DNA of 64,000 bases, from assembly GCA_002050235.1 (NCBI GenBank), contig MWST01000001.1, forward strand, positions 4,243 through 68,242. The letters run 5' to 3'. The notes below the pieces were generated by a model, which was not told where the DNA came from, did not search any database, and worked only from the letters and a program-made list of their open reading frames with translations. Numbering within the stretch: the first letter of the stretch is position 1; each line of letters opens with the position of its first letter. The position numbers were made by a program, and so were the translations under genes. The stretch comes from Polyangiaceae bacterium UTPRO1 (GTDB taxonomy: Bacteria > Desulfobacterota > Binatia > UTPRO1). This document shows, one piece after another, positions 46,564-52,564 of this stretch.

Positions 46564-47790
46564 ATGGACGCAGCGGCGCGACGGGCGAGCGGTGGGTGGC
46601 GGAGCGGGTGGTGGCTGCGGACGCTGACTTGCTTCCTCGCGTTCGCCGCGGCCGCCTGCGGCAGGACGGCGCCGCCGCCGCCACCACCGCCGCCGGTCGC
46701 CGTCGCCCACCCGCTCGTGCAGGCGGTGGTCGAGTGGGACGAGTATACCGCGCGCCTCGCGGCAGTGAGCGCGGTCGAGGTCCGGCCGCGCGTCAGCGGC
46801 TATCTGCAATCGGTTCACTTCGTCGACGGCGCCATCGTGGCCGCCGGCGACCTGCTCTTCGTGATCGACCCTCGTCCCTACGAGGCCGTGCTCAATCGGG
46901 CGCGCGCCGACCTGGCGCTCGCCGAGGCGCGCCTCGATCTGGCGCGCAAGGATCTGGTGCGGGCGGAGTTCCTCGTCAAGTCCCGCGCCATCTCTCAGGA
47001 GGAGGTGGACACGCGTGCCGCCACGGTGCGGCAGGCGGAGGCGGCGGTCGGAGGGGCGCGGGCGGCGGTCGACGCTGCCGCACTCGACGTCGAGTTCACG
47101 CACGTGACGGCGCCGATAGGCGGGCGCGCCAGCCGGCACCTGGTCACCGAGGGCAACCTCGTCGTCGGCGGCGGCACCAGCAACGCGACGCTCCTCACCT
47201 CGATCGTCTCGATCGACCCCATCTGGGCATACTTCGAGATCGATGAGCAGGCGTACCTGCGCTACGCGCGTTTGAACCTGGCGGGAGAGCGGCCGAGCTC
47301 GCGCGAAGTACAGTATCCGGTGCAGGTGGCGCTCGCCGACGAGCCCGACTTCCCGCACGCCGGCGCGATGGACTTCATCGACAATCAGTTCGATCCCGAG
47401 ACGGGGACGATGCAGGGGCGCGCCGTGCTGCCGAATCCGGATCAGCTCTTCAGTCCCGGGCAGTTCGTGCGGCTGCGCCTGGCGGGGAGCGGCCGCCACG
47501 ACGCGGTGCTGATCCCGGACGAGGCCGTCGGTACGGACCAGGCGCAGCGCTTCGTCTGGGTCGTGGACGGGGAAAACCGGGTGCACTACCGCGCCGTCGA
47601 GCTCGGACCGCTGTACGAGGGCAAGCGCATCGTCCGCTCCGGCCTCACGGCGGCGGATCGCCTCGTCGTCTCCGGACTGCAGCGCGTGCGCCCGAACATC
47701 GTCGTGGCGCCGATGGAGGAGGCGCTGACAGCGGCCACCGACGCCGCGCCGCCGCCGTCGCCGCTGCCGAGTGCGACGCCGGCCAGCTGA
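46564..47790 (+). CDS. RND efflux periplasmic adaptor (membrane fusion protein)
   Basis: Lipoprotein-like signal (LAFAAAAC) and MFP motifs (VEVRPRVSGYLQSVHFVDGAIVAAGDLLFVIDPRPYEA, coiled-coil hairpin, FTHVTAPIGGRAS, GQFVRLRL). ATG at 46564. Confidence 0.9.
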   Translation: MDAAARRASGGWRSGWWLRTLTCFLAFAAAACGRTAPPPPPPPPVAVAHPLVQAVVEWDEYTARLAAVSAVEVRPRVSGYLQSVHFVDGAIVAAGDLLFVIDPRPYEAVLNRARADLALAEARLDLARKDLVRAEFLVKSRAISQEEVDTRAATVRQAEAAVGGARAAVDAAALDVEFTHVTAPIGGRASRHLVTEGNLVVGGGTSNATLLTSIVSIDPIWAYFEIDEQAYLRYARLNLAGERPSSREVQYPVQVALADEPDFPHAGAMDFIDNQFDPETGTMQGRAVLPNPDQLFSPGQFVRLRLAGSGRHDAVLIPDEAVGTDQAQRFVWVVDGENRVHYRAVELGPLYEGKRIVRSGLTAADRLVVSGLQRVRPNIVVAPMEEALTAATDAAPPPSPLPSATPAS

Positions 47791-47799
47791 GCAGCCACC

Positions 47800-50700
47800 G
47801 TGAGCCTGCCGCACTTCTTCATCGACCGCCCCATCTTCGCCGCGGTGCTCTCGATCGTCACGATTCTGCTCGGGGCACTCGCGTATCGGGCGCTGCCCAT
47901 GGCGCAGTATCCCGAAGTCGTGCCGCCGACGATCGTGGTGCGGGCGGCGTATCCCGGCGCGCCGCCGGAGGTGATCGCCGACACGGTCGCGGCGCCGATC
48001 GAGCAGGAGGTGAACGGCGTCGAGGACATGCTCTACATGTCTTCGCAGTGCACCACCGACGGGCGGATGGCGCTGACGATCACCTTCAAGCTCGGCACCG
48101 ATCTCGACAAGGCACAGGTGCTCGTCCAGAACCGCGTCGCCATCGCCGAACCGCGCCTGCCCGAGGACGTGCGGCGGATCGGCGTCACCACGGTGAAGAG
48201 CTCTCCGGATCTCCTCATGGTCGTGCACCTGCTCTCGAAGGACCAGCGCTACGACCAGCTCTACATCGGCAACTACGCGCTCATCCAGGTGCGCGACGTG
48301 CTGTCGCGCATCGACGGCGTCGGCGACGTGACCCTCGGCGGACTGCGCGAGTACAGCATGCGCGTCTGGCTCGATCCGGATCGGCTGGCGAGCCGCAACG
48401 TGACGACCGGCGACGTCGTCGCTGCGCTCCGCGAGCAGAACGTGCAGGTGGCCTCGGGGATGATCGGACAACCCCCGGCAGTCCCGGGAACGGCCTTCCA
48501 GTTGCCGATCAAGACCTTGGGGCGGCTGTTCGACGCCGAGCAGTTCGGAGAGATCGTCATCAAGACCGGGGTCGATGGGCGCGTCATCCGCATCCGCGAC
48601 GTGGCGCGCGTCGAGCTCGGAGCCCGCGACTATTCCGTCAACAGCTACCTCGACGGCGAGCCTGCCGTAGCGATGTTGATCAGCCAACGGCCCGGATCCA
48701 ATGCGCTGGCGACCTCGGACGCCGTCGAGCGCACGATGGAGGAGCTCTCGGCGAGCTTCCCCGAGGGCATCGAATACCGCATCGTCTACAACCCGACGGT
48801 CTTCGTCCGCGAGTCCATCGACGCGGTGATCCACACGCTCTACGAGGCGATCGTCCTCGTCGTCATCGTGGTGCTGGTCTTCTTGCAGAGCTGGCGCGCG
48901 AGCCTGATCCCGCTCCTCGCCATTCCGGTCTCGATCGTCGGCACCTTCGCGGCGATGGCGGCGCTCGGCTTCGCGCTCAACATGCTGTCGCTATTCGGCC
49001 TGGTGCTGGCGATCGGCATCGTCGTCGACGACGCGATCGTCGTCGTCGAGAACGTCGAGCGGCATCTGCGCGCCGGCCTGGCGCCGCGCGAGGCGACGTT
49101 CAAGGCGATGGAGGAGGTGACGTCGGCGGTCATCGCCATCGCCTTCGGTCTCTGCGCGGTGTTCGTGCCGACCGCCTTCCTCGGCGGCATCACCGGGCAG
49201 TTCTACCGGCAATTCGCGCTCACGATCGCGGCGGCGACGCTGCTCTCGGCGTTCAACTCGCTGACGCTATCGCCGGCGCTGTGCGCGCTCCTGTTGAAGC
49301 CGCACGGCGCGCCCCAGGACTTTCTCGAGGTCGTGACCGCGCGCGTGTTCGGGCGCTTCTTCGCCTGGTTCAATCGCGCCTTCGAGCGGATGACCGGGCG
49401 CTATGCGACCTCGCTCGGATGGGTGCTGCGGCGTCCGAGCCTCGGGCTCGTGCTCTACGCCGCCCTCCTGGCGGTGGCCGGATTCCAGCTCCGCCACATT
49501 CCGACCGGCTTCATCCCGCCGCAGGACAAGGGCTACCTGATCGCCGCCATCCAGCTGCCCGACGGCGCCTCCCTCGAGCGCACCGATGCGGTGGTCCGCA
49601 AGGCGACGCAGCTCATCCTCGAGTCGCCGCACGTCGCGCACGCGGTCGGGCTCGCGGGCTTCTCGGGCGCGACGCGCTCCAACAGCTCGAACGTCGGCGC
49701 CTTCTTCATCAATGCGAAACCTTTCGACGAGCGCCTGCACGGACCTTCGGCCGACGAGATCCAGCGCGATATGCAGCACCGCCTCGAGGCGATCGACGAG
49801 GCGCAGGTCTTCGTGCTGCCGCCGCCCCCGGTGCCCGGCCTGGGCTTCGTCGGCGGCTTCAAGGTGCTGGTGCAGGACCGCGCCGGTCACGGGCTGCGGG
49901 CCCTGCAGGCCGCCACCGATCAACTGGTCGAGCAGACCTATCAGGATCCCGACGTCAGCCACGTGTTCACTACCTTCCGCGCCTCGACCCCGCAGCTCTA
50001 CGCCAACGTCGATCGCATCAAGGCGCAAAAGCTCGGCGTGCCGCTCAAGAACGTCTTCGACACGCTGCAGGTGTACCTCGGGTCGCTGTACGTGAACGAC
50101 CTGAACCTGTTCGGCCGCACCTTCCAGGTGTGGGCCCAGGCCGAGGCGAAGTTCCGCTCCGAGGCGCGGGACATCGAGCGCCTGCAGACCCGCAACGTCG
50201 ACGGTGCGATGGTGCCGCTCGGGTCGGTGCTCGGAGTCGAGCAGCAGAGCGGTCCCGATCGCGTCGTCCGCTACAACATGTACCCGGCCGCGGAGGTGCA
50301 GGGCGACATGGCGCCCGGCGGCAGCCTCGGCTCCGCGATGGCGGCGATCCAGCGGCTCGCCGGACAGCTGCCGCTCGGCTTCGGCATCGCCTGGACCGAC
50401 ATCGCCTACCAGGCGCAGCTCGTCGGCAACAGCGCGCTCTTCATTTTCCCGCTCTGCGTCCTCTTCGTGTTCCTCGTGCATTCCGCGGAGTACGAGAGCT
50501 GGTCGCTGCCGCTCGCGATCATCCTGATCGCGCCGATGAGCCTGCCGTTCGCGCTCCTCGGGATCTGGCTGCGGGGCATGGACAACAACCTCATCACCCA
50601 GATCGGGCTCGTGGTGCTGATCGGGCTGGCTGCGAAGAACGCGGTCCTGATCGTCGAGTTCGCCAAGCAGCAGGAGGACGGGGGCAAGGACCGCTTCGCC

Positions 50701-52389
50701 GCCGCCATCACGGCGGCGCGCCTGCGCTTGCGGCCGATCCTGATGACCTCGTTTGCCTTCATCCTCGGGGTGGTGCCGCTGGCGCGCGCCACCGGCGCCG
50801 GCGCCGAGATGCGGCGCGTCCTCGGCACGGCGGTCTTCAGCGGGATGCTCGGGGTGACCGCGCTCGGGCTCTTTCTCACGCCGATCTTCTACGTGCTGAT
50901 CCGTGGCGCGGTGACCCGCAGGCGCGGCGTCCTAGGTTCGGCGGCGGTGGTTCTGGCGCTTGTCGGTGCCGGGGCTGCGTTCTCCGGTTGCATGGTCGCG
51001 GGGCGGGACTACGAGCCGCCGGCGCTGCGCGTGCCGGAGCGGTTCCGCGGCGCCGGCGGCGCTGCCGAGGCGACGCTCGACGCCCGCGACGCGGTCGAGG
51101 TCGCCTGGTGGAAAGGCTTCGGCGACCCGGAGCTGACCTCGCTCGTCGAGCGGGCGGCCCGGCGCAACCGCGATCTCGCGATCGCCACTGCGGCGGTGCG
51201 CGAGGCGCGAGCCCTGCGCTTCGAGAGCATGCTCGATCTGGCGCCGACCGTGACCAGCAACGCCGGCTTCGTCGAGGCGCGCATCAGCCGCGACAGCATT
51301 CGCGGCAGCGGCGCCTTCGCGGCGATCGAGCGCGAGCGGGGGCTCTACGATGCCGGCTTCGATGCCGGCTGGGAGCTCGACCTCTTCGGCCGGGTGCGGC
51401 GGTCGATCGAGGCGCGGACGGCGGATGTGGCAGCGGCGGAGGGACGGCTGCGGGACGTGTTGGTGAGCGTCCAGGCGGAGGTGGCGCGCGCCTACCTCGA
51501 GCTCCGCGGAGCCCAGCTACGGCTCGATGTCGCCGAGCGCAACGCGGCGAACCAGGCGTCGACCTACGAGCTCACCAAGGTGCTCCTCGAGGGCGGGCGC
51601 GGCACCGAGCTCGACACGGCGCGCGCCGAGGCGCAACTGACGGCGACGCGCGCCATGATCCCCCGGGTCCGCCTCGTCTCCGAGCGCGCCCGGCACCGAC
51701 TCGGCGTGCTGCTCGGCGTGGCGCCGACGGCGCTCGAGGAGGAGCTGGCGGCGCGCGAGCCGCTGCCGCGCCTGCCCGAGCTGGCCGCCGTCGGCTCGCC
51801 GAGCGAGCTCCTGCGCCGCCGACCGGACATCATGACCGCCGAGCACGAGCTCATGGCCGCGACCGCGCGCCGCGGCGTCGCGGTCGCCGATCTCTTCCCG
51901 CGCGTCACCTTCTCCGGGTCGGTGGCGCTGCAGGCGCAGAGCCTCGCCGGACTCGGCGGGGCCGGCAGCGATACCTTCAATTTCGGCCCGCGCATCTTCT
52001 GGGCGGCCTTCGATCTCGGGCGGGTGCGGGCGCGGATCGTCGCTGCCGACGCCCGCAGCGAAGCGGCTCTCGCACGCTACGAACGTACGGTGCTCGGCGC
52101 CCTCGAAGAGACCGAGAACGCCCTGGTGCAGCTGGCGCGCGAGCGCCAGCGCCGCGACGAGCTCCGCGTCTCGGCCGCGGCCAGCGAGCGCGCCACGGTG
52201 CGCGCGCGCGAGCGCTATCAGTACGGCGTCGCCAACTTCCTCGAGGTCCTCGACGCCGAGCGCCGACTGCTGGAGGTGCAGAACGACCTGGCCGACAGCG
52301 AGACGGAGACCGCGACGTCGCTCGTGGCGGTCTACAAGGCGCTCGGCGGCGGCTGGCAGGTGCCGGAGCCGGAGGCGCCGCCGGGCTGA
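47800..52389 (+). CDS. RND efflux permease (AcrB/MexB-like, residues 1-1037) continuous in frame with an outer-membrane-factor lipoprotein module (residues 1038-1529)
   Basis: N-terminus MSLPHFFIDRPIFAAVLSIVTILLG and the full 12-TM RND architecture ending ...LFLTPIFYVLIRGA. Then, with no stop codon, comes VTRRRGVLGSAAVVLALVGAGAAFSGC followed by NodT/OprM-type OMF sequence (DYEPPALRVPERF, WWKGFGDPELTSLV, YKALGGGW). The single ORF is as given in the track; I verified the frame at the junction. Confidence 0.85.
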   Translation: MSLPHFFIDRPIFAAVLSIVTILLGALAYRALPMAQYPEVVPPTIVVRAAYPGAPPEVIADTVAAPIEQEVNGVEDMLYMSSQCTTDGRMALTITFKLGTDLDKAQVLVQNRVAIAEPRLPEDVRRIGVTTVKSSPDLLMVVHLLSKDQRYDQLYIGNYALIQVRDVLSRIDGVGDVTLGGLREYSMRVWLDPDRLASRNVTTGDVVAALREQNVQVASGMIGQPPAVPGTAFQLPIKTLGRLFDAEQFGEIVIKTGVDGRVIRIRDVARVELGARDYSVNSYLDGEPAVAMLISQRPGSNALATSDAVERTMEELSASFPEGIEYRIVYNPTVFVRESIDAVIHTLYEAIVLVVIVVLVFLQSWRASLIPLLAIPVSIVGTFAAMAALGFALNMLSLFGLVLAIGIVVDDAIVVVENVERHLRAGLAPREATFKAMEEVTSAVIAIAFGLCAVFVPTAFLGGITGQFYRQFALTIAAATLLSAFNSLTLSPALCALLLKPHGAPQDFLEVVTARVFGRFFAWFNRAFERMTGRYATSLGWVLRRPSLGLVLYAALLAVAGFQLRHIPTGFIPPQDKGYLIAAIQLPDGASLERTDAVVRKATQLILESPHVAHAVGLAGFSGATRSNSSNVGAFFINAKPFDERLHGPSADEIQRDMQHRLEAIDEAQVFVLPPPPVPGLGFVGGFKVLVQDRAGHGLRALQAATDQLVEQTYQDPDVSHVFTTFRASTPQLYANVDRIKAQKLGVPLKNVFDTLQVYLGSLYVNDLNLFGRTFQVWAQAEAKFRSEARDIERLQTRNVDGAMVPLGSVLGVEQQSGPDRVVRYNMYPAAEVQGDMAPGGSLGSAMAAIQRLAGQLPLGFGIAWTDIAYQAQLVGNSALFIFPLCVLFVFLVHSAEYESWSLPLAIILIAPMSLPFALLGIWLRGMDNNLITQIGLVVLIGLAAKNAVLIVEFAKQQEDGGKDRFAAAITAARLRLRPILMTSFAFILGVVPLARATGAGAEMRRVLGTAVFSGMLGVTALGLFLTPIFYVLIRGAVTRRRGVLGSAAVVLALVGAGAAFSGCMVAGRDYEPPALRVPERFRGAGGAAEATLDARDAVEVAWWKGFGDPELTSLVERAARRNRDLAIATAAVREARALRFESMLDLAPTVTSNAGFVEARISRDSIRGSGAFAAIERERGLYDAGFDAGWELDLFGRVRRSIEARTADVAAAEGRLRDVLVSVQAEVARAYLELRGAQLRLDVAERNAANQASTYELTKVLLEGGRGTELDTARAEAQLTATRAMIPRVRLVSERARHRLGVLLGVAPTALEEELAAREPLPRLPELAAVGSPSELLRRRPDIMTAEHELMAATARRGVAVADLFPRVTFSGSVALQAQSLAGLGGAGSDTFNFGPRIFWAAFDLGRVRARIVAADARSEAALARYERTVLGALEETENALVQLARERQRRDELRVSAAASERATVRARERYQYGVANFLEVLDAERRLLEVQNDLADSETETATSLVAVYKALGGGWQVPEPEAPPG
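50911..52389 (+). other. OMF (NodT/OprM-family) module with its own lipoprotein signal peptide and potential internal GTG start
   Basis: The GTG at 50911 is in frame with the RND part. n-region TRRRG, h-region VLGSAAVVLALVGAGAAF, lipobox Cys codon at 50989-50991. 492 codons to the stop at 52389. Confidence 0.8.
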
Positions 52390-52564
52390 GGCGCGGGCCG
52401 ATTTCACGGCTGCGGCGCCTTACCGGGAGCCGCTTGGGTCGGGTGCCGGACGCAGGTCGCCGCACCGCTGCGTGCCGACTTTGGGGGTATGGAGGCTCGG
52501 CACGACTCCATGCCCGCGGCGGCTTGCCGGGACTGCTTGGGTCCGCCGCCCGCAGCAGTTCGCC

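What the first reader, a model, noticed from the sequence alone, without database searches (positions are those of the whole stretch)
50880..50995. RND inner-membrane pump and outer-membrane-factor lipoprotein form one uninterrupted 1529-aa reading frame
The RND permease ends its twelfth helix at ...TPIFYVLIRGA. The frame then continues without a stop into VTRRRGVLGSAAVVLALVGAGAAFSGC|MVAGRDYEPP, a complete lipoprotein signal peptide with a lipobox Cys (50989-50991), followed by a full NodT/OprM-type OMF.

The RND C-terminus is cytoplasmic. The signal-like helix would therefore cross the membrane in the correct in-to-out orientation and expose the lipobox to signal peptidase II. A fused precursor could in principle be cleaved into pump plus lipidated OMF.

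An internal GTG (50911) could also initiate the OMF separately, but ribosomes translating the pump would still read through. I am not aware of a described RND-OMF translational fusion. The alternative explanation is a 1-nt assembly error removing a stop. There are out-of-frame TGAs at 50897 and 50912, the latter forming a GTGA start/stop-overlap-like sequence.
Basis: partly seen in the sequence, partly recalled or inferred. Interest (0 to 1): 0.6.

Follow-up and report, generated by a model that had tools for sequence, protein, structure and literature searches.

The report
Efflux pump fused to its outer-membrane channel
One gene in this uncultured bacterium encodes both the inner-membrane pump and the outer-membrane exit channel of a drug-efflux machine, joined by the channel's own lipoprotein export signal; the fusion is real, recurs in many lineages, and probably yields two proteins by cutting at that internal signal, a route I found in no paper.

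Summary
Window 47800-52389 (+) is one 1529-codon frame. It encodes a complete HAE1 RND permease (residues 1-1035), a basic loop (R1035-R1042), a 21-residue uncharged stretch, a lipobox (F-S-G-C1064) and a complete NodT/OprN-type outer-membrane factor.

It is not an assembly error. DNA contigs from four studies and RNA contigs from three metatranscriptome runs cross the junction without an indel. Two NCBI assemblies encode the identical protein. Three same-genus orthologues (76-80% identity) are fused too.

128 of 129 fused homologues keep the junction Cys. 15 of 120 distant 50%-cluster representatives have the same architecture. RND trees need at least 6-16 gains or losses of the fusion. The fusion is still rare per genome: 7 of 301 genomes in the window's class, and 1 of about 13 RND systems in this genome.

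The internal GTG (50911) is not conserved within the genus. The out-of-frame TGAs are by-products of conserved codons or are not conserved.

Best reading: a polyprotein precursor. The internal signal inserts as a 13th helix, and Lgt and LspA (both encoded) lipidate and cut before Cys1064, releasing the channel. Cleavage is inferred, not shown.

Seven literature searches found no description. Earlier notes of this scan report the same architecture in at least 17 other genomes.

The parts
46564..47790 (+). Periplasmic adaptor (MFP) gene, 408 aa, MexE/OqxA-like. It is itself a lipoprotein (…LAFAAAAC-G near its N-terminus). It ends 9 nt before the fused gene.
   Evidence: Gene call in identical NCBI contigs. 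NCBIfam TIGR01730 is over its cut-off and the best equivalog model is MexE. Translation.
47800..52389 (+). Single 1529-codon ORF encoding RND permease, internal lipoprotein signal and outer-membrane factor. The stop is at 52387-52389.
   Evidence: The same frame is open in independent DNA and RNA contigs.
47812..50904 (+). HAE1-type RND permease domain (residues 5-1035). The proton-relay residues are present: D410/D411 in VVDDAIV, K946 in AAKNAVL, and R in RLRPILMTS. TM12 ends at ...TPIFYVLIR.
   Evidence: Pfam ACR_tran 5-1035. NF000282 and TIGR00915 are over their cut-offs. It aligns end to end with solved RND pumps 7wlv, 8yr0, 7cz9 and MexB. Motif positions.
50902..50925 (+). Basic cytoplasmic loop R1035-R1042 (RGAVTRRR). 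It serves as the n-region of the internal signal. It contains GTG 50911-50913 (V1038), the candidate internal start.
   Evidence: Sequence. The GTG is kept in G006 but replaced by ACG in G002 and CTC in G004. One NCBI annotation calls a 492-aa OMF from this GTG.
50926..50979 (+). Hydrophobic stretch G1043-A1060 (GVLGSAAVVLALVGAGAA). It is the h-region of the internal signal and the predicted 13th transmembrane helix, oriented in-to-out.
   Evidence: The uncharged run before the Cys is 21 residues. The best 19-residue Kyte-Doolittle mean is 2.07. The property is conserved in homologues, not the sequence.
50980..50991 (+). Lipobox F-S-G-C. Cys1064 (50989-50991) is the predicted acylation site and the first residue of the mature channel.
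   Evidence: The Cys is invariant in the 30-sequence junction alignment. A [GAS]-Cys is present in 128 of 129 fused homologues.
50989..52386 (+). Mature NodT/OprN-type outer-membrane factor, 466 aa, with two OEP repeats.
   Evidence: Pfam OEP x2. TIGR01845 is over its cut-off. The closest solved structure is OprN 5iuy/5azo at E 1e-93, followed by OprM, CusC and OprJ.

Best explanation
This is a natural gene fusion of a MexF/OqxB-like RND permease with its OprN-like outer-membrane factor. It is expressed from a two-gene operon (adaptor, then pump::channel).

The chain is most likely a polyprotein precursor.
1. After the 12 helices of the pump insert, its C-terminal tail lies in the cytoplasm.
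2. The following basic loop and 21-residue hydrophobic stretch insert as a 13th helix, in-to-out, and carry the channel part across the inner membrane.
3. Lgt attaches diacylglycerol to Cys1064.
4. LspA cuts between G1063 and C1064.
5. The lipidated channel is released and goes to the outer membrane. The signal helix stays attached to the pump.

The result is pump and channel in the 1:1 ratio of the assembled 3:6:3 machine.

**Shown:** the fusion, its transcription across the junction, its conservation and recurrence, the intact lipobox, and the presence of Lgt and LspA.

**Inferred:** insertion of the 13th helix, acylation, cleavage and sorting.
For: - **The sequence is real.** The frame is open and identical in independent DNA contigs from four studies and in RNA contigs. 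It is also identical in two NCBI assemblies.
- **Orthologues are fused.** Same-genus genomes G002, G004 and G006 match at 76-80% identity with no stop. Two further genomes of the class are fused as well.
- **The lipobox is under selection.** 128 of 129 fused homologues keep a [GAS]-Cys followed by the usual NodT start (xxGP[ND]Y), although the n- and h-regions differ freely in sequence. This is how a working signal peptide evolves.
- **The architecture recurs.** 15 of 120 RND representatives at 37-51% identity are RND+OEP fusions. 13 of them have a lipobox and one has a signal-peptidase-I-type signal. Trees of the RND half need 9 changes on 75 rows (6 forced by supported branches) and 22 on 310 rows (16 forced). 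Stop loss would be purged each time unless the internal signal worked.
- **A canonical junction is one step away.** Same-class relative G236 reads ...HEGAH-TAA-ATG-KRAALIAVLALLVSGC in one frame. One substitution would create this architecture.
- **No conserved internal start.** GTG 50911 is ACG in G002 and CTC in G004.
- **The signal is helix-length in fused genes.** The uncharged run before the Cys has a median of 23 residues, against 13 in 42 separate OMF signals.
- **The machinery is present.** The genome encodes LspA and Lgt.
- **Topology fits.** The RND half aligns end to end with solved pumps whose C-terminus is cytoplasmic (plus established AcrB/MexB topology).
Against: - No experiment or proteomic datum shows cleavage or acylation. 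Lgt and LspA are only known to act on N-terminal signals, so action on a signal behind 1035 residues is assumed.
- Internal initiation cannot be excluded from sequence. This genome shows no Shine-Dalgarno motif even before its real starts. A Val codon at the end of TM12 is GTG in most orthologues.
- The lipobox has F at -3, which is less common than L.
- The 'all fused' look of the large homologue clades is partly an ascertainment effect, because the search ranked hits across the junction.
- The hydrophobicity comparison is not corrected for relatedness.
- The fusion is rare per genome: 7 of 301 in the class, and 0-1 of 301 in a second phylum sample.
Confidence: 0.7

Rival explanations
1. The channel is made mainly by separate translation initiation inside the long ORF, at GTG 50911 or a nearby GTG or TTG, as in an ordinary operon that lost its stop codon. 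The full-length read-through chain would be a tolerated by-product that is degraded or inactive.
For: An in-frame GTG sits right before the basic residues. One NCBI annotation calls a 492-aa OMF from it. Starts in this genome have no visible Shine-Dalgarno motif, so the lack of one here says nothing. Most orthologues keep at least one GTG near the end of TM12.
Against: GTG 50911 is not conserved in same-genus orthologues G002 and G004. In other fused genes the possible starts lie inside TM12 or leave no positive n-region (L087, L035).

Ribosomes translating the pump would still make the fusion at a 1:1 ratio with the pump, so a useless product would be costly. A stop codon would restore the ordinary state by one mutation. 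Yet fused clades persist over branch lengths of 0.1-0.5 changes per site, and the fusion arose repeatedly. The hydrophobic stretch is longer than in free-standing OMF signals, as expected for an internal helix.
Confidence: 0.17
2. The chain is not cut, or only partly. Pump and channel would stay one polypeptide, tethered through the 13th helix and the roughly 40 residues between Cys1064 and the WW motif.
For: Nothing here shows cleavage. About 40 residues lie between the Cys and the first conserved channel motif (WWKGF at 1103). Fully extended, they might reach far into the periplasm.
Against: In solved OprM/OprN-type channels the N-terminal Cys is lipid-anchored in the outer membrane (established structures; closest match OprN). 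The fused proteins add no linker after the Cys compared with separate OMFs. The strict retention of a lipobox in 128 of 129 homologues has no purpose without Lgt/LspA processing.
Confidence: 0.06
3. The open frame is an artefact, either a 1-nt assembly or sequencing error that removed the pump's stop codon, or a recent pseudogene-like accident in one strain.
For: In +1 frame there are TGAs at 50897 and 50912. Frameshifted copies exist in two other assemblies: G003 in the same genus, and L013.
Against: Four independently assembled DNA contigs have 0 differences. 20 runs hold all sampled words. RNA contigs, including a divergent strain, keep the frame. Orthologues at 58-80% identity are fused. 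The TGAs are not conserved or are forced by conserved codons.
Confidence: 0.01

Closest known systems
MexEF-OprN of Pseudomonas aeruginosa, and the OqxAB pump type: tripartite HAE1 RND multidrug efflux systems
   Same: All three parts are present and complete. The adaptor is nearest to MexE/OqxA. The permease is nearest to the OqxB-type and related solved pumps (7cz9, 7wlv, 8yr0) and then MexB. The channel is nearest to OprN. The gene order is adaptor, pump, channel. Proton-relay residues are present.
   Different: Pump and channel are one reading frame instead of two genes, so the channel's lipoprotein signal lies at residues 1035-1064 of a 1529-aa chain. The operon has no separate OMF gene and no adjacent TetR/LysR regulator.
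Ordinary NodT-family outer-membrane lipoproteins (TIGR01845), such as OprM, OprN and CusC
   Same: The match to the family model is full length and over the cut-off, including the signal region. It has the lipobox Cys, the xxG(P/R)DY start and two OEP repeats.
   Different: The signal peptide is not N-terminal. Its uncharged stretch is of transmembrane-helix length: 21 residues here and a median of 23 in fused homologues, against 13 in separate OMFs.
FbcH of Bradyrhizobium japonicum, a cytochrome b / cytochrome c1 polyprotein split at an internal signal sequence (Thöny-Meyer and colleagues, about 1989-1991; recalled from memory, not found in the searchable library)
   Same: The logic is the same. 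A polytopic inner-membrane protein ending in the cytoplasm is followed in one chain by the signal peptide of an exported partner of the same complex, and cutting at that signal yields two subunits.
   Different: There the cut is by signal peptidase I and both products stay at the inner membrane. Here the predicted cut is by the lipoprotein pathway (Lgt/LspA), and the released product must travel to the outer membrane. This is an analogy in mechanism only, not a family relationship.
RND::OMF fusions noted earlier in this scan in at least 17 other genomes
   Same: The architecture is the same (complete RND, internal lipoprotein signal, complete OMF) and the proposed reading is the same.
   Different: They come from other lineages and other RND subgroups. 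My trees indicate that the window's clade is a separate origin from the two large fused clades. Those notes are unchecked AI notes, not evidence.

Membership tests
HAE1 RND permease (Pfam ACR_tran, TIGR00915, NF000282) | Full-length match to the family models above their curated cut-offs | tested here: met
   ACR_tran 5-1035 scores 1153 bits. NF000282 scores 1387.7 against a cut-off of 1250. TIGR00915 scores 1162.5 against 940.
HAE1 RND permease (Pfam ACR_tran, TIGR00915, NF000282) | Twelve-helix fold with two large periplasmic loops and cytoplasmic N- and C-termini | tested here: met
   Met by homology only. The half aligns end to end (1-1035) with solved pumps 7wlv, 8yr0, 7cz9, MexB and AcrB. 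No structure was predicted here.
HAE1 RND permease (Pfam ACR_tran, TIGR00915, NF000282) | Proton-relay residues (AcrB D407, D408, K940, R971 equivalents) | tested here: met
   D410/D411 in VVDDAIV, K946 in AAKNAVL, and R in RLRPILMTS.
NodT-family outer-membrane factor lipoprotein (TIGR01845, Pfam OEP) | Two OEP repeats and a full-length match to TIGR01845 above its cut-off | tested here: met
   OEP x2. TIGR01845 scores 311.9 bits against a cut-off of 210, with profile positions 3-460 on residues 1057-1518. OprN 5iuy matches at E 9e-94.
NodT-family outer-membrane factor lipoprotein (TIGR01845, Pfam OEP) | Own N-terminal lipoprotein signal peptide on a separate polypeptide | tested here: not met
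   The signal (basic loop, hydrophobic stretch, FSGC) is present but internal, at residues 1035-1064 of the fused chain.
Canonical tripartite RND efflux operon (MexEF-OprN / MexAB-OprM type) | Adaptor gene adjacent to the pump gene | tested here: met
   The MFP gene at 46564-47790 ends 9 nt before the fused ORF.
Canonical tripartite RND efflux operon (MexEF-OprN / MexAB-OprM type) | Pump and channel encoded as separate genes and polypeptides | tested here: not met
   There is one frame and no stop. In the same genome the other ~12 RND genes and ~10 OEP genes are separate.
Bacterial lipoprotein precursors (Lgt/LspA substrates) | Lipobox of the form [LVI..][ASTG..][GAS]-C after an uncharged stretch preceded by basic residues | tested here: met
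   RRRG-VLGSAAVVLALVGAGAA-FSG-C. F at -3 is unusual but within the PROSITE-type pattern as I recall it. Homologues mostly have LSGC, LTGC or LNGC.
Bacterial lipoprotein precursors (Lgt/LspA substrates) | Signal located at the N-terminus of the precursor | tested here: not met
   The Cys is residue 1064 of 1529.
Bacterial lipoprotein precursors (Lgt/LspA substrates) | Lgt and LspA encoded by the organism | tested here: met
   PF01790 scores 168 bits at C22:90979-91728. PF01252 scores 143 bits at C28:348490-348918. Both are over their cut-offs.
Bacterial lipoprotein precursors (Lgt/LspA substrates) | Diacylglyceryl modification of the Cys and cleavage before it | not testable with these tools
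   This needs globomycin sensitivity, a Cys-to-Ala mutant, palmitate labelling or mass spectrometry.
Membrane polyproteins split at an internal signal peptide (FbcH-type logic) | Upstream polytopic protein ends in the cytoplasm and is followed in frame by a signal peptide and an exported partner of the same complex | tested here: met
   Sequence anatomy. This is a resemblance in mechanism, not homology.
Membrane polyproteins split at an internal signal peptide (FbcH-type logic) | Two mature products demonstrated | not testable with these tools
   No proteomic or biochemical data were available.

The most novel reading that the evidence does not exclude
The chain is not cut, or only a fraction of it is. 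Pump and channel would then remain one polypeptide that is anchored in the inner membrane by 13 helices and in the outer membrane by the channel's barrel. The link would be the ~40 residues after Cys1064, giving a covalent single-chain bridge across the whole envelope. Under this reading the retained lipobox would serve only a cleaved sub-population.
Probability: 0.06. Interest if true: 0.9.

Novelty: new variant of a known kind. Interest (0 to 1): 0.62.

Why it matters
Tripartite RND pumps are the main intrinsic drug-efflux machines of Gram-negative bacteria, and every described one is built from separately encoded pump, adaptor and channel.

A natural, recurrent pump::channel polyprotein would mean three things:
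- The Sec/YidC and Lgt/LspA machinery can handle a lipoprotein signal that lies behind a 12-helix membrane protein.
- An outer-membrane protein can be born as the tail of an inner-membrane protein.
- The pump keeps a 13th helix whose role is unknown.

It also gives a built-in 1:1 pump-to-channel stoichiometry and a dedicated channel. This bears on how partner specificity and assembly order are set.

In practice, annotation pipelines label these genes only as 'RND permease', or split them inconsistently; here one assembly has a 492-aa OMF call. Channel counts in genomes of these lineages are therefore too low.

The hypothesis can be tested directly with standard tools: tags, globomycin and a Cys mutant.

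Tried and rejected
- **Shine-Dalgarno test for the internal GTG:** uninformative. Neither the adaptor start, the pump start nor GTG 50911 has a recognisable SD in this 69.7% G+C genome.
- **Excluding internal initiation by absence of start codons:** not possible. A Val codon at the end of TM12 is GTG in most orthologues.
- **Genome-contig scan with the junction alignment:** I used it as the unfused comparison set instead. My count of 'query residues matched 1-190' there was misleading until each locus was checked for a stop.
- **G035 as an in-frame relative:** I first took G035's in-frame TAG for a pump-stop-channel arrangement. The sequence after the stop is not an OMF.
- **'All members of the big clades are fused':** rejected as evidence, because the homologue search ranked hits across the junction (ascertainment).
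- **Prevalence in a second phylum:** only 1 of 301 genomes gave a strong junction match, and that one has an in-frame TGA. The fusion is scattered, not common. Only six candidates per genome were scored there, so this is a lower bound.
- **Literature:** seven full-text searches and one targeted read found no description of a natural RND-OMF fusion, and no open copy of the FbcH papers.
- **Taxonomy:** accession searches found nothing. Earlier notes say Binatia, but one 'same class' genome coincides with a record labelled Candidatus Acidiferrales. I left this open.
- **Structure prediction:** not run. A model cannot show cleavage, and the chain exceeds the size limit.
Full report
**What is there.** The window holds a single ORF at 47800..52389 (+), 1529 aa, with no internal stop.
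- Pfam finds ACR_tran on residues 5-1035 and two OEP repeats behind it.
- NCBIfam puts the first part in RND_permease_1 and TIGR00915 (HAE1), both over their cut-offs.
- It puts residues 1057-1518 in TIGR01845 (NodT-type outer-membrane factor), over the cut-off and from profile position 3, so the match includes the signal region.
- The junction reads ...TPIFYVLIR-GAVTRRRG-VLGSAAVVLALVGAGAA-FSG-C1064-MVAGRDYEPP.
- GTG 50911 is V1038. The Cys is at 50989-50991.
- A 408-aa MexE-like adaptor gene (46564-47790) ends 9 nt upstream.
- By sequence the pump half is nearest to solved OqxB-type pumps and MexB, and the channel half to OprN.

This is therefore a MexEF-OprN/OqxAB-like system in which pump and channel are one gene.

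**Is it an artefact? No.**
- All sampled 31-mers of the 701-base junction are present in 20 public DNA runs from at least 10 studies between 2017 and 2025.
- Contigs assembled separately from four of those runs cover 50700-51100 with no difference and no gap, at word depths of 6 to 112.
- Metatranscriptome contigs cross the junction in three runs. One of them is a strain variant with 28 substitutions over 1.9 kb and no indel inside the ORF. It has lost the out-of-frame TGA at 50912 but keeps the frame.
- The identical protein is called in two NCBI assemblies.
- In one annotation a 492-aa product starting at GTG 50911 was also called. This shows how inconsistently pipelines treat the gene.

**Relatives.**
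- In the same genus, three genomes carry a fused orthologue (76-80% identity across the junction, no stop). A fourth carries a copy broken by a frameshift inside TM12, in an assembly of only 20 contigs that may be long-read.
- In a sample of 301 genomes of the class, 7 hold a fused gene. About two dozen hold a closely related pump without a channel behind it.
- A protein search across the junction returned more than 100 clusters of 1430-1614 aa with both domains, at 53-80% identity.
- Of 129 such proteins, 128 keep a [GAS]-Cys lipobox followed by the usual NodT start. The basic and hydrophobic parts before it vary freely in sequence but not in character.
- A search with the pump half alone against 50%-identity representatives is not biased towards fusions. 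Of 120 full-length hits, 15 are 1372-1541 aa. The six I scanned are all ACR_tran plus OEP. Thirteen of the 15 have a lipobox, one has a signal-peptidase-I-type signal, and one has a degenerate junction.

**One origin or several?**
- Trees of the C-terminal 560 residues of the pump need 9 changes of state on 190 rows (FastTree) and 22 on 310 rows, 16 of them forced by well-supported branches (FastTree).
- They need 9 changes on 75 rows, 6 of them forced (IQ-TREE quick).
- The window's clade (14 fused rows) is separate from two large fused clades. It sits among unfused pumps of the same class.
- Single fused genes are nested inside unfused Gemmatimonadota and gammaproteobacterial groups.
- Counts cannot tell gains from losses. 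Some single cases come from long-read MAGs, where an indel could mimic a fusion.
- Even so, the pattern of repeated change is robust.
- A same-class relative shows how easily a fusion arises. Its junction is ...HEGAH-TAA-ATG-KRAALIAVLALLVSGC in one frame, with a GAGGGGG ribosome-binding site. One substitution in the stop codon would give exactly the fused architecture.

**How it most likely works.** The C-terminus of RND pumps is cytoplasmic (established AcrB/MexB topology). The pump half aligns end to end with those structures.

The genome encodes Lgt and LspA.

The channel part has no extra linker after the Cys compared with separate OMFs. In solved OprM/OprN-type channels that Cys is lipid-anchored in the outer membrane. 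A working channel therefore needs a free, processed N-terminus.

I conclude that the chain is a precursor cut before Cys1064. The signal helix would be left on the pump as a 13th helix. The length of the uncharged stretch fits an internal membrane-spanning role: median 23 residues in fused proteins against 13 in 42 separate OMF signals, and best 19-residue hydropathy 1.93 against 1.28. That comparison is not corrected for relatedness, so the p-values overstate the case.

**The main rival: a separate start for the channel.**
- GTG 50911 is kept in one same-genus orthologue but is ACG in G002 and CTC in G004.
- In several other fused genes the only in-frame start codons lie inside TM12 or after the basic residues. 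No internal start is conserved.
- I cannot exclude initiation at the GTG at the end of TM12, and this genome shows no Shine-Dalgarno motif even at real starts.
- Even with an internal start, every ribosome that finishes the pump also makes the channel part. A non-functional fusion product would be costly, and one mutation would remove it.
- Persistence and recurrence of the fusion argue that the read-through product is the useful one.
- The +1 TGA at 50897 follows from the conserved (C/G)TG-ATC codons. The TGA at 50912 is not conserved. Neither is a relic of a stop.

**Context and limits.**
- Only this one of about 13 RND systems and 11 OEP genes in the genome is fused.
- The fusion is phylogenetically scattered but rare per genome.
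- Source labels on homologues name Verrucomicrobiota, Acidobacteriota, Gemmatimonadota and Entotheonellia. Such labels on MAGs are not always reliable.
- Earlier notes of this scan place the window's genome in Binatia. I did not verify that, and I found one conflicting label.
- Seven literature searches and a look into the 2021 Chemical Reviews survey of tripartite pumps found no description of a natural RND-OMF fusion.
- Earlier AI notes of this scan report the same architecture in at least 17 other genomes with the same reading. They are leads, not independent support.

**Verdict.** This is a real, transcribed, conserved and recurrent pump::channel fusion. It is most likely matured by the lipoprotein pathway at an internal signal. 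It is a new variant of a known system, and the maturation step is still to be shown.

Noticed in passing
L005 (G003:C6:752801-753768), same genus: The orthologous fused gene is broken by a frameshift inside TM12 (...GLFLTPGRSTS*), and the channel part continues in another frame. The assembly has only 20 contigs for 7.7 Mb, so this may be a long-read indel error rather than a pseudogene.
   Followed up: partly
L098 (G236:C5:382441-383502), same class: This is a canonical unfused junction in a single frame: ...HEGAH-TAA-ATG-KRAALIAVLALLVSGC, with a GAGGGGG ribosome-binding site. One stop-codon substitution would make it a fusion.
   Followed up: yes
P0176 (1473 aa): A low-G+C RND+OEP fusion whose junction carries a signal-peptidase-I-type signal (...LALSAPAFS-EETEE) and no lipobox Cys. 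The fused architecture is therefore not restricted to lipoprotein channels.
   Followed up: no
P0014 (1614 aa): A fused homologue whose junction is an 80+ residue Gly/Asp/Arg-rich low-complexity stretch without a lipobox. It is probably a frame error in that metagenome contig.
   Followed up: no
L013 (CAVSQF010000016.1, 'uncultured delta proteobacterium'): A near-copy of a fused gene (junction like P0075/L087) with a frameshift just after ...RGILERKKG, so that pump and channel fall in different frames. It may be an indel error of the assembly or a recent fission.
   Followed up: partly
Earlier notes of this scan call the window's genome Binatia. One of the labels or groupings must be wrong.
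   Followed up: partly
window 46564-46665: The adaptor (MFP) itself starts with a lipoprotein signal (MDAAARRASGGWRSGWWLRTLTCFLAFAAAAC-G). Both periplasm-facing partners of the pump are therefore predicted lipoproteins.
   Followed up: no
window 50603-52500, run X26: A metatranscriptome from a biofilm holds a strain variant of the gene with 28 substitutions (about 1.5%). Eleven of them fall in the 70 bases of the junction, which is therefore the fastest-changing part of the gene while staying in frame.
   Followed up: partly
L104 8952-11307 (ENA ERZ25039549 contig_15829): Next to another fused operon (TetR, adaptor, pump::channel), a second RND gene on the opposite strand is called in three fragments of 244, 334 and 77 aa. 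These are probably indel errors of that 3.6-Mb long-read contig.
   Followed up: no
G528:C193:49013-50083: In the phylum sample around a Verrucomicrobia-labelled genome, the only strong junction-spanning match has one in-frame TGA between pump and channel. It is either an ordinary stop in the same frame or a recoded codon. I did not look at it.
   Followed up: no
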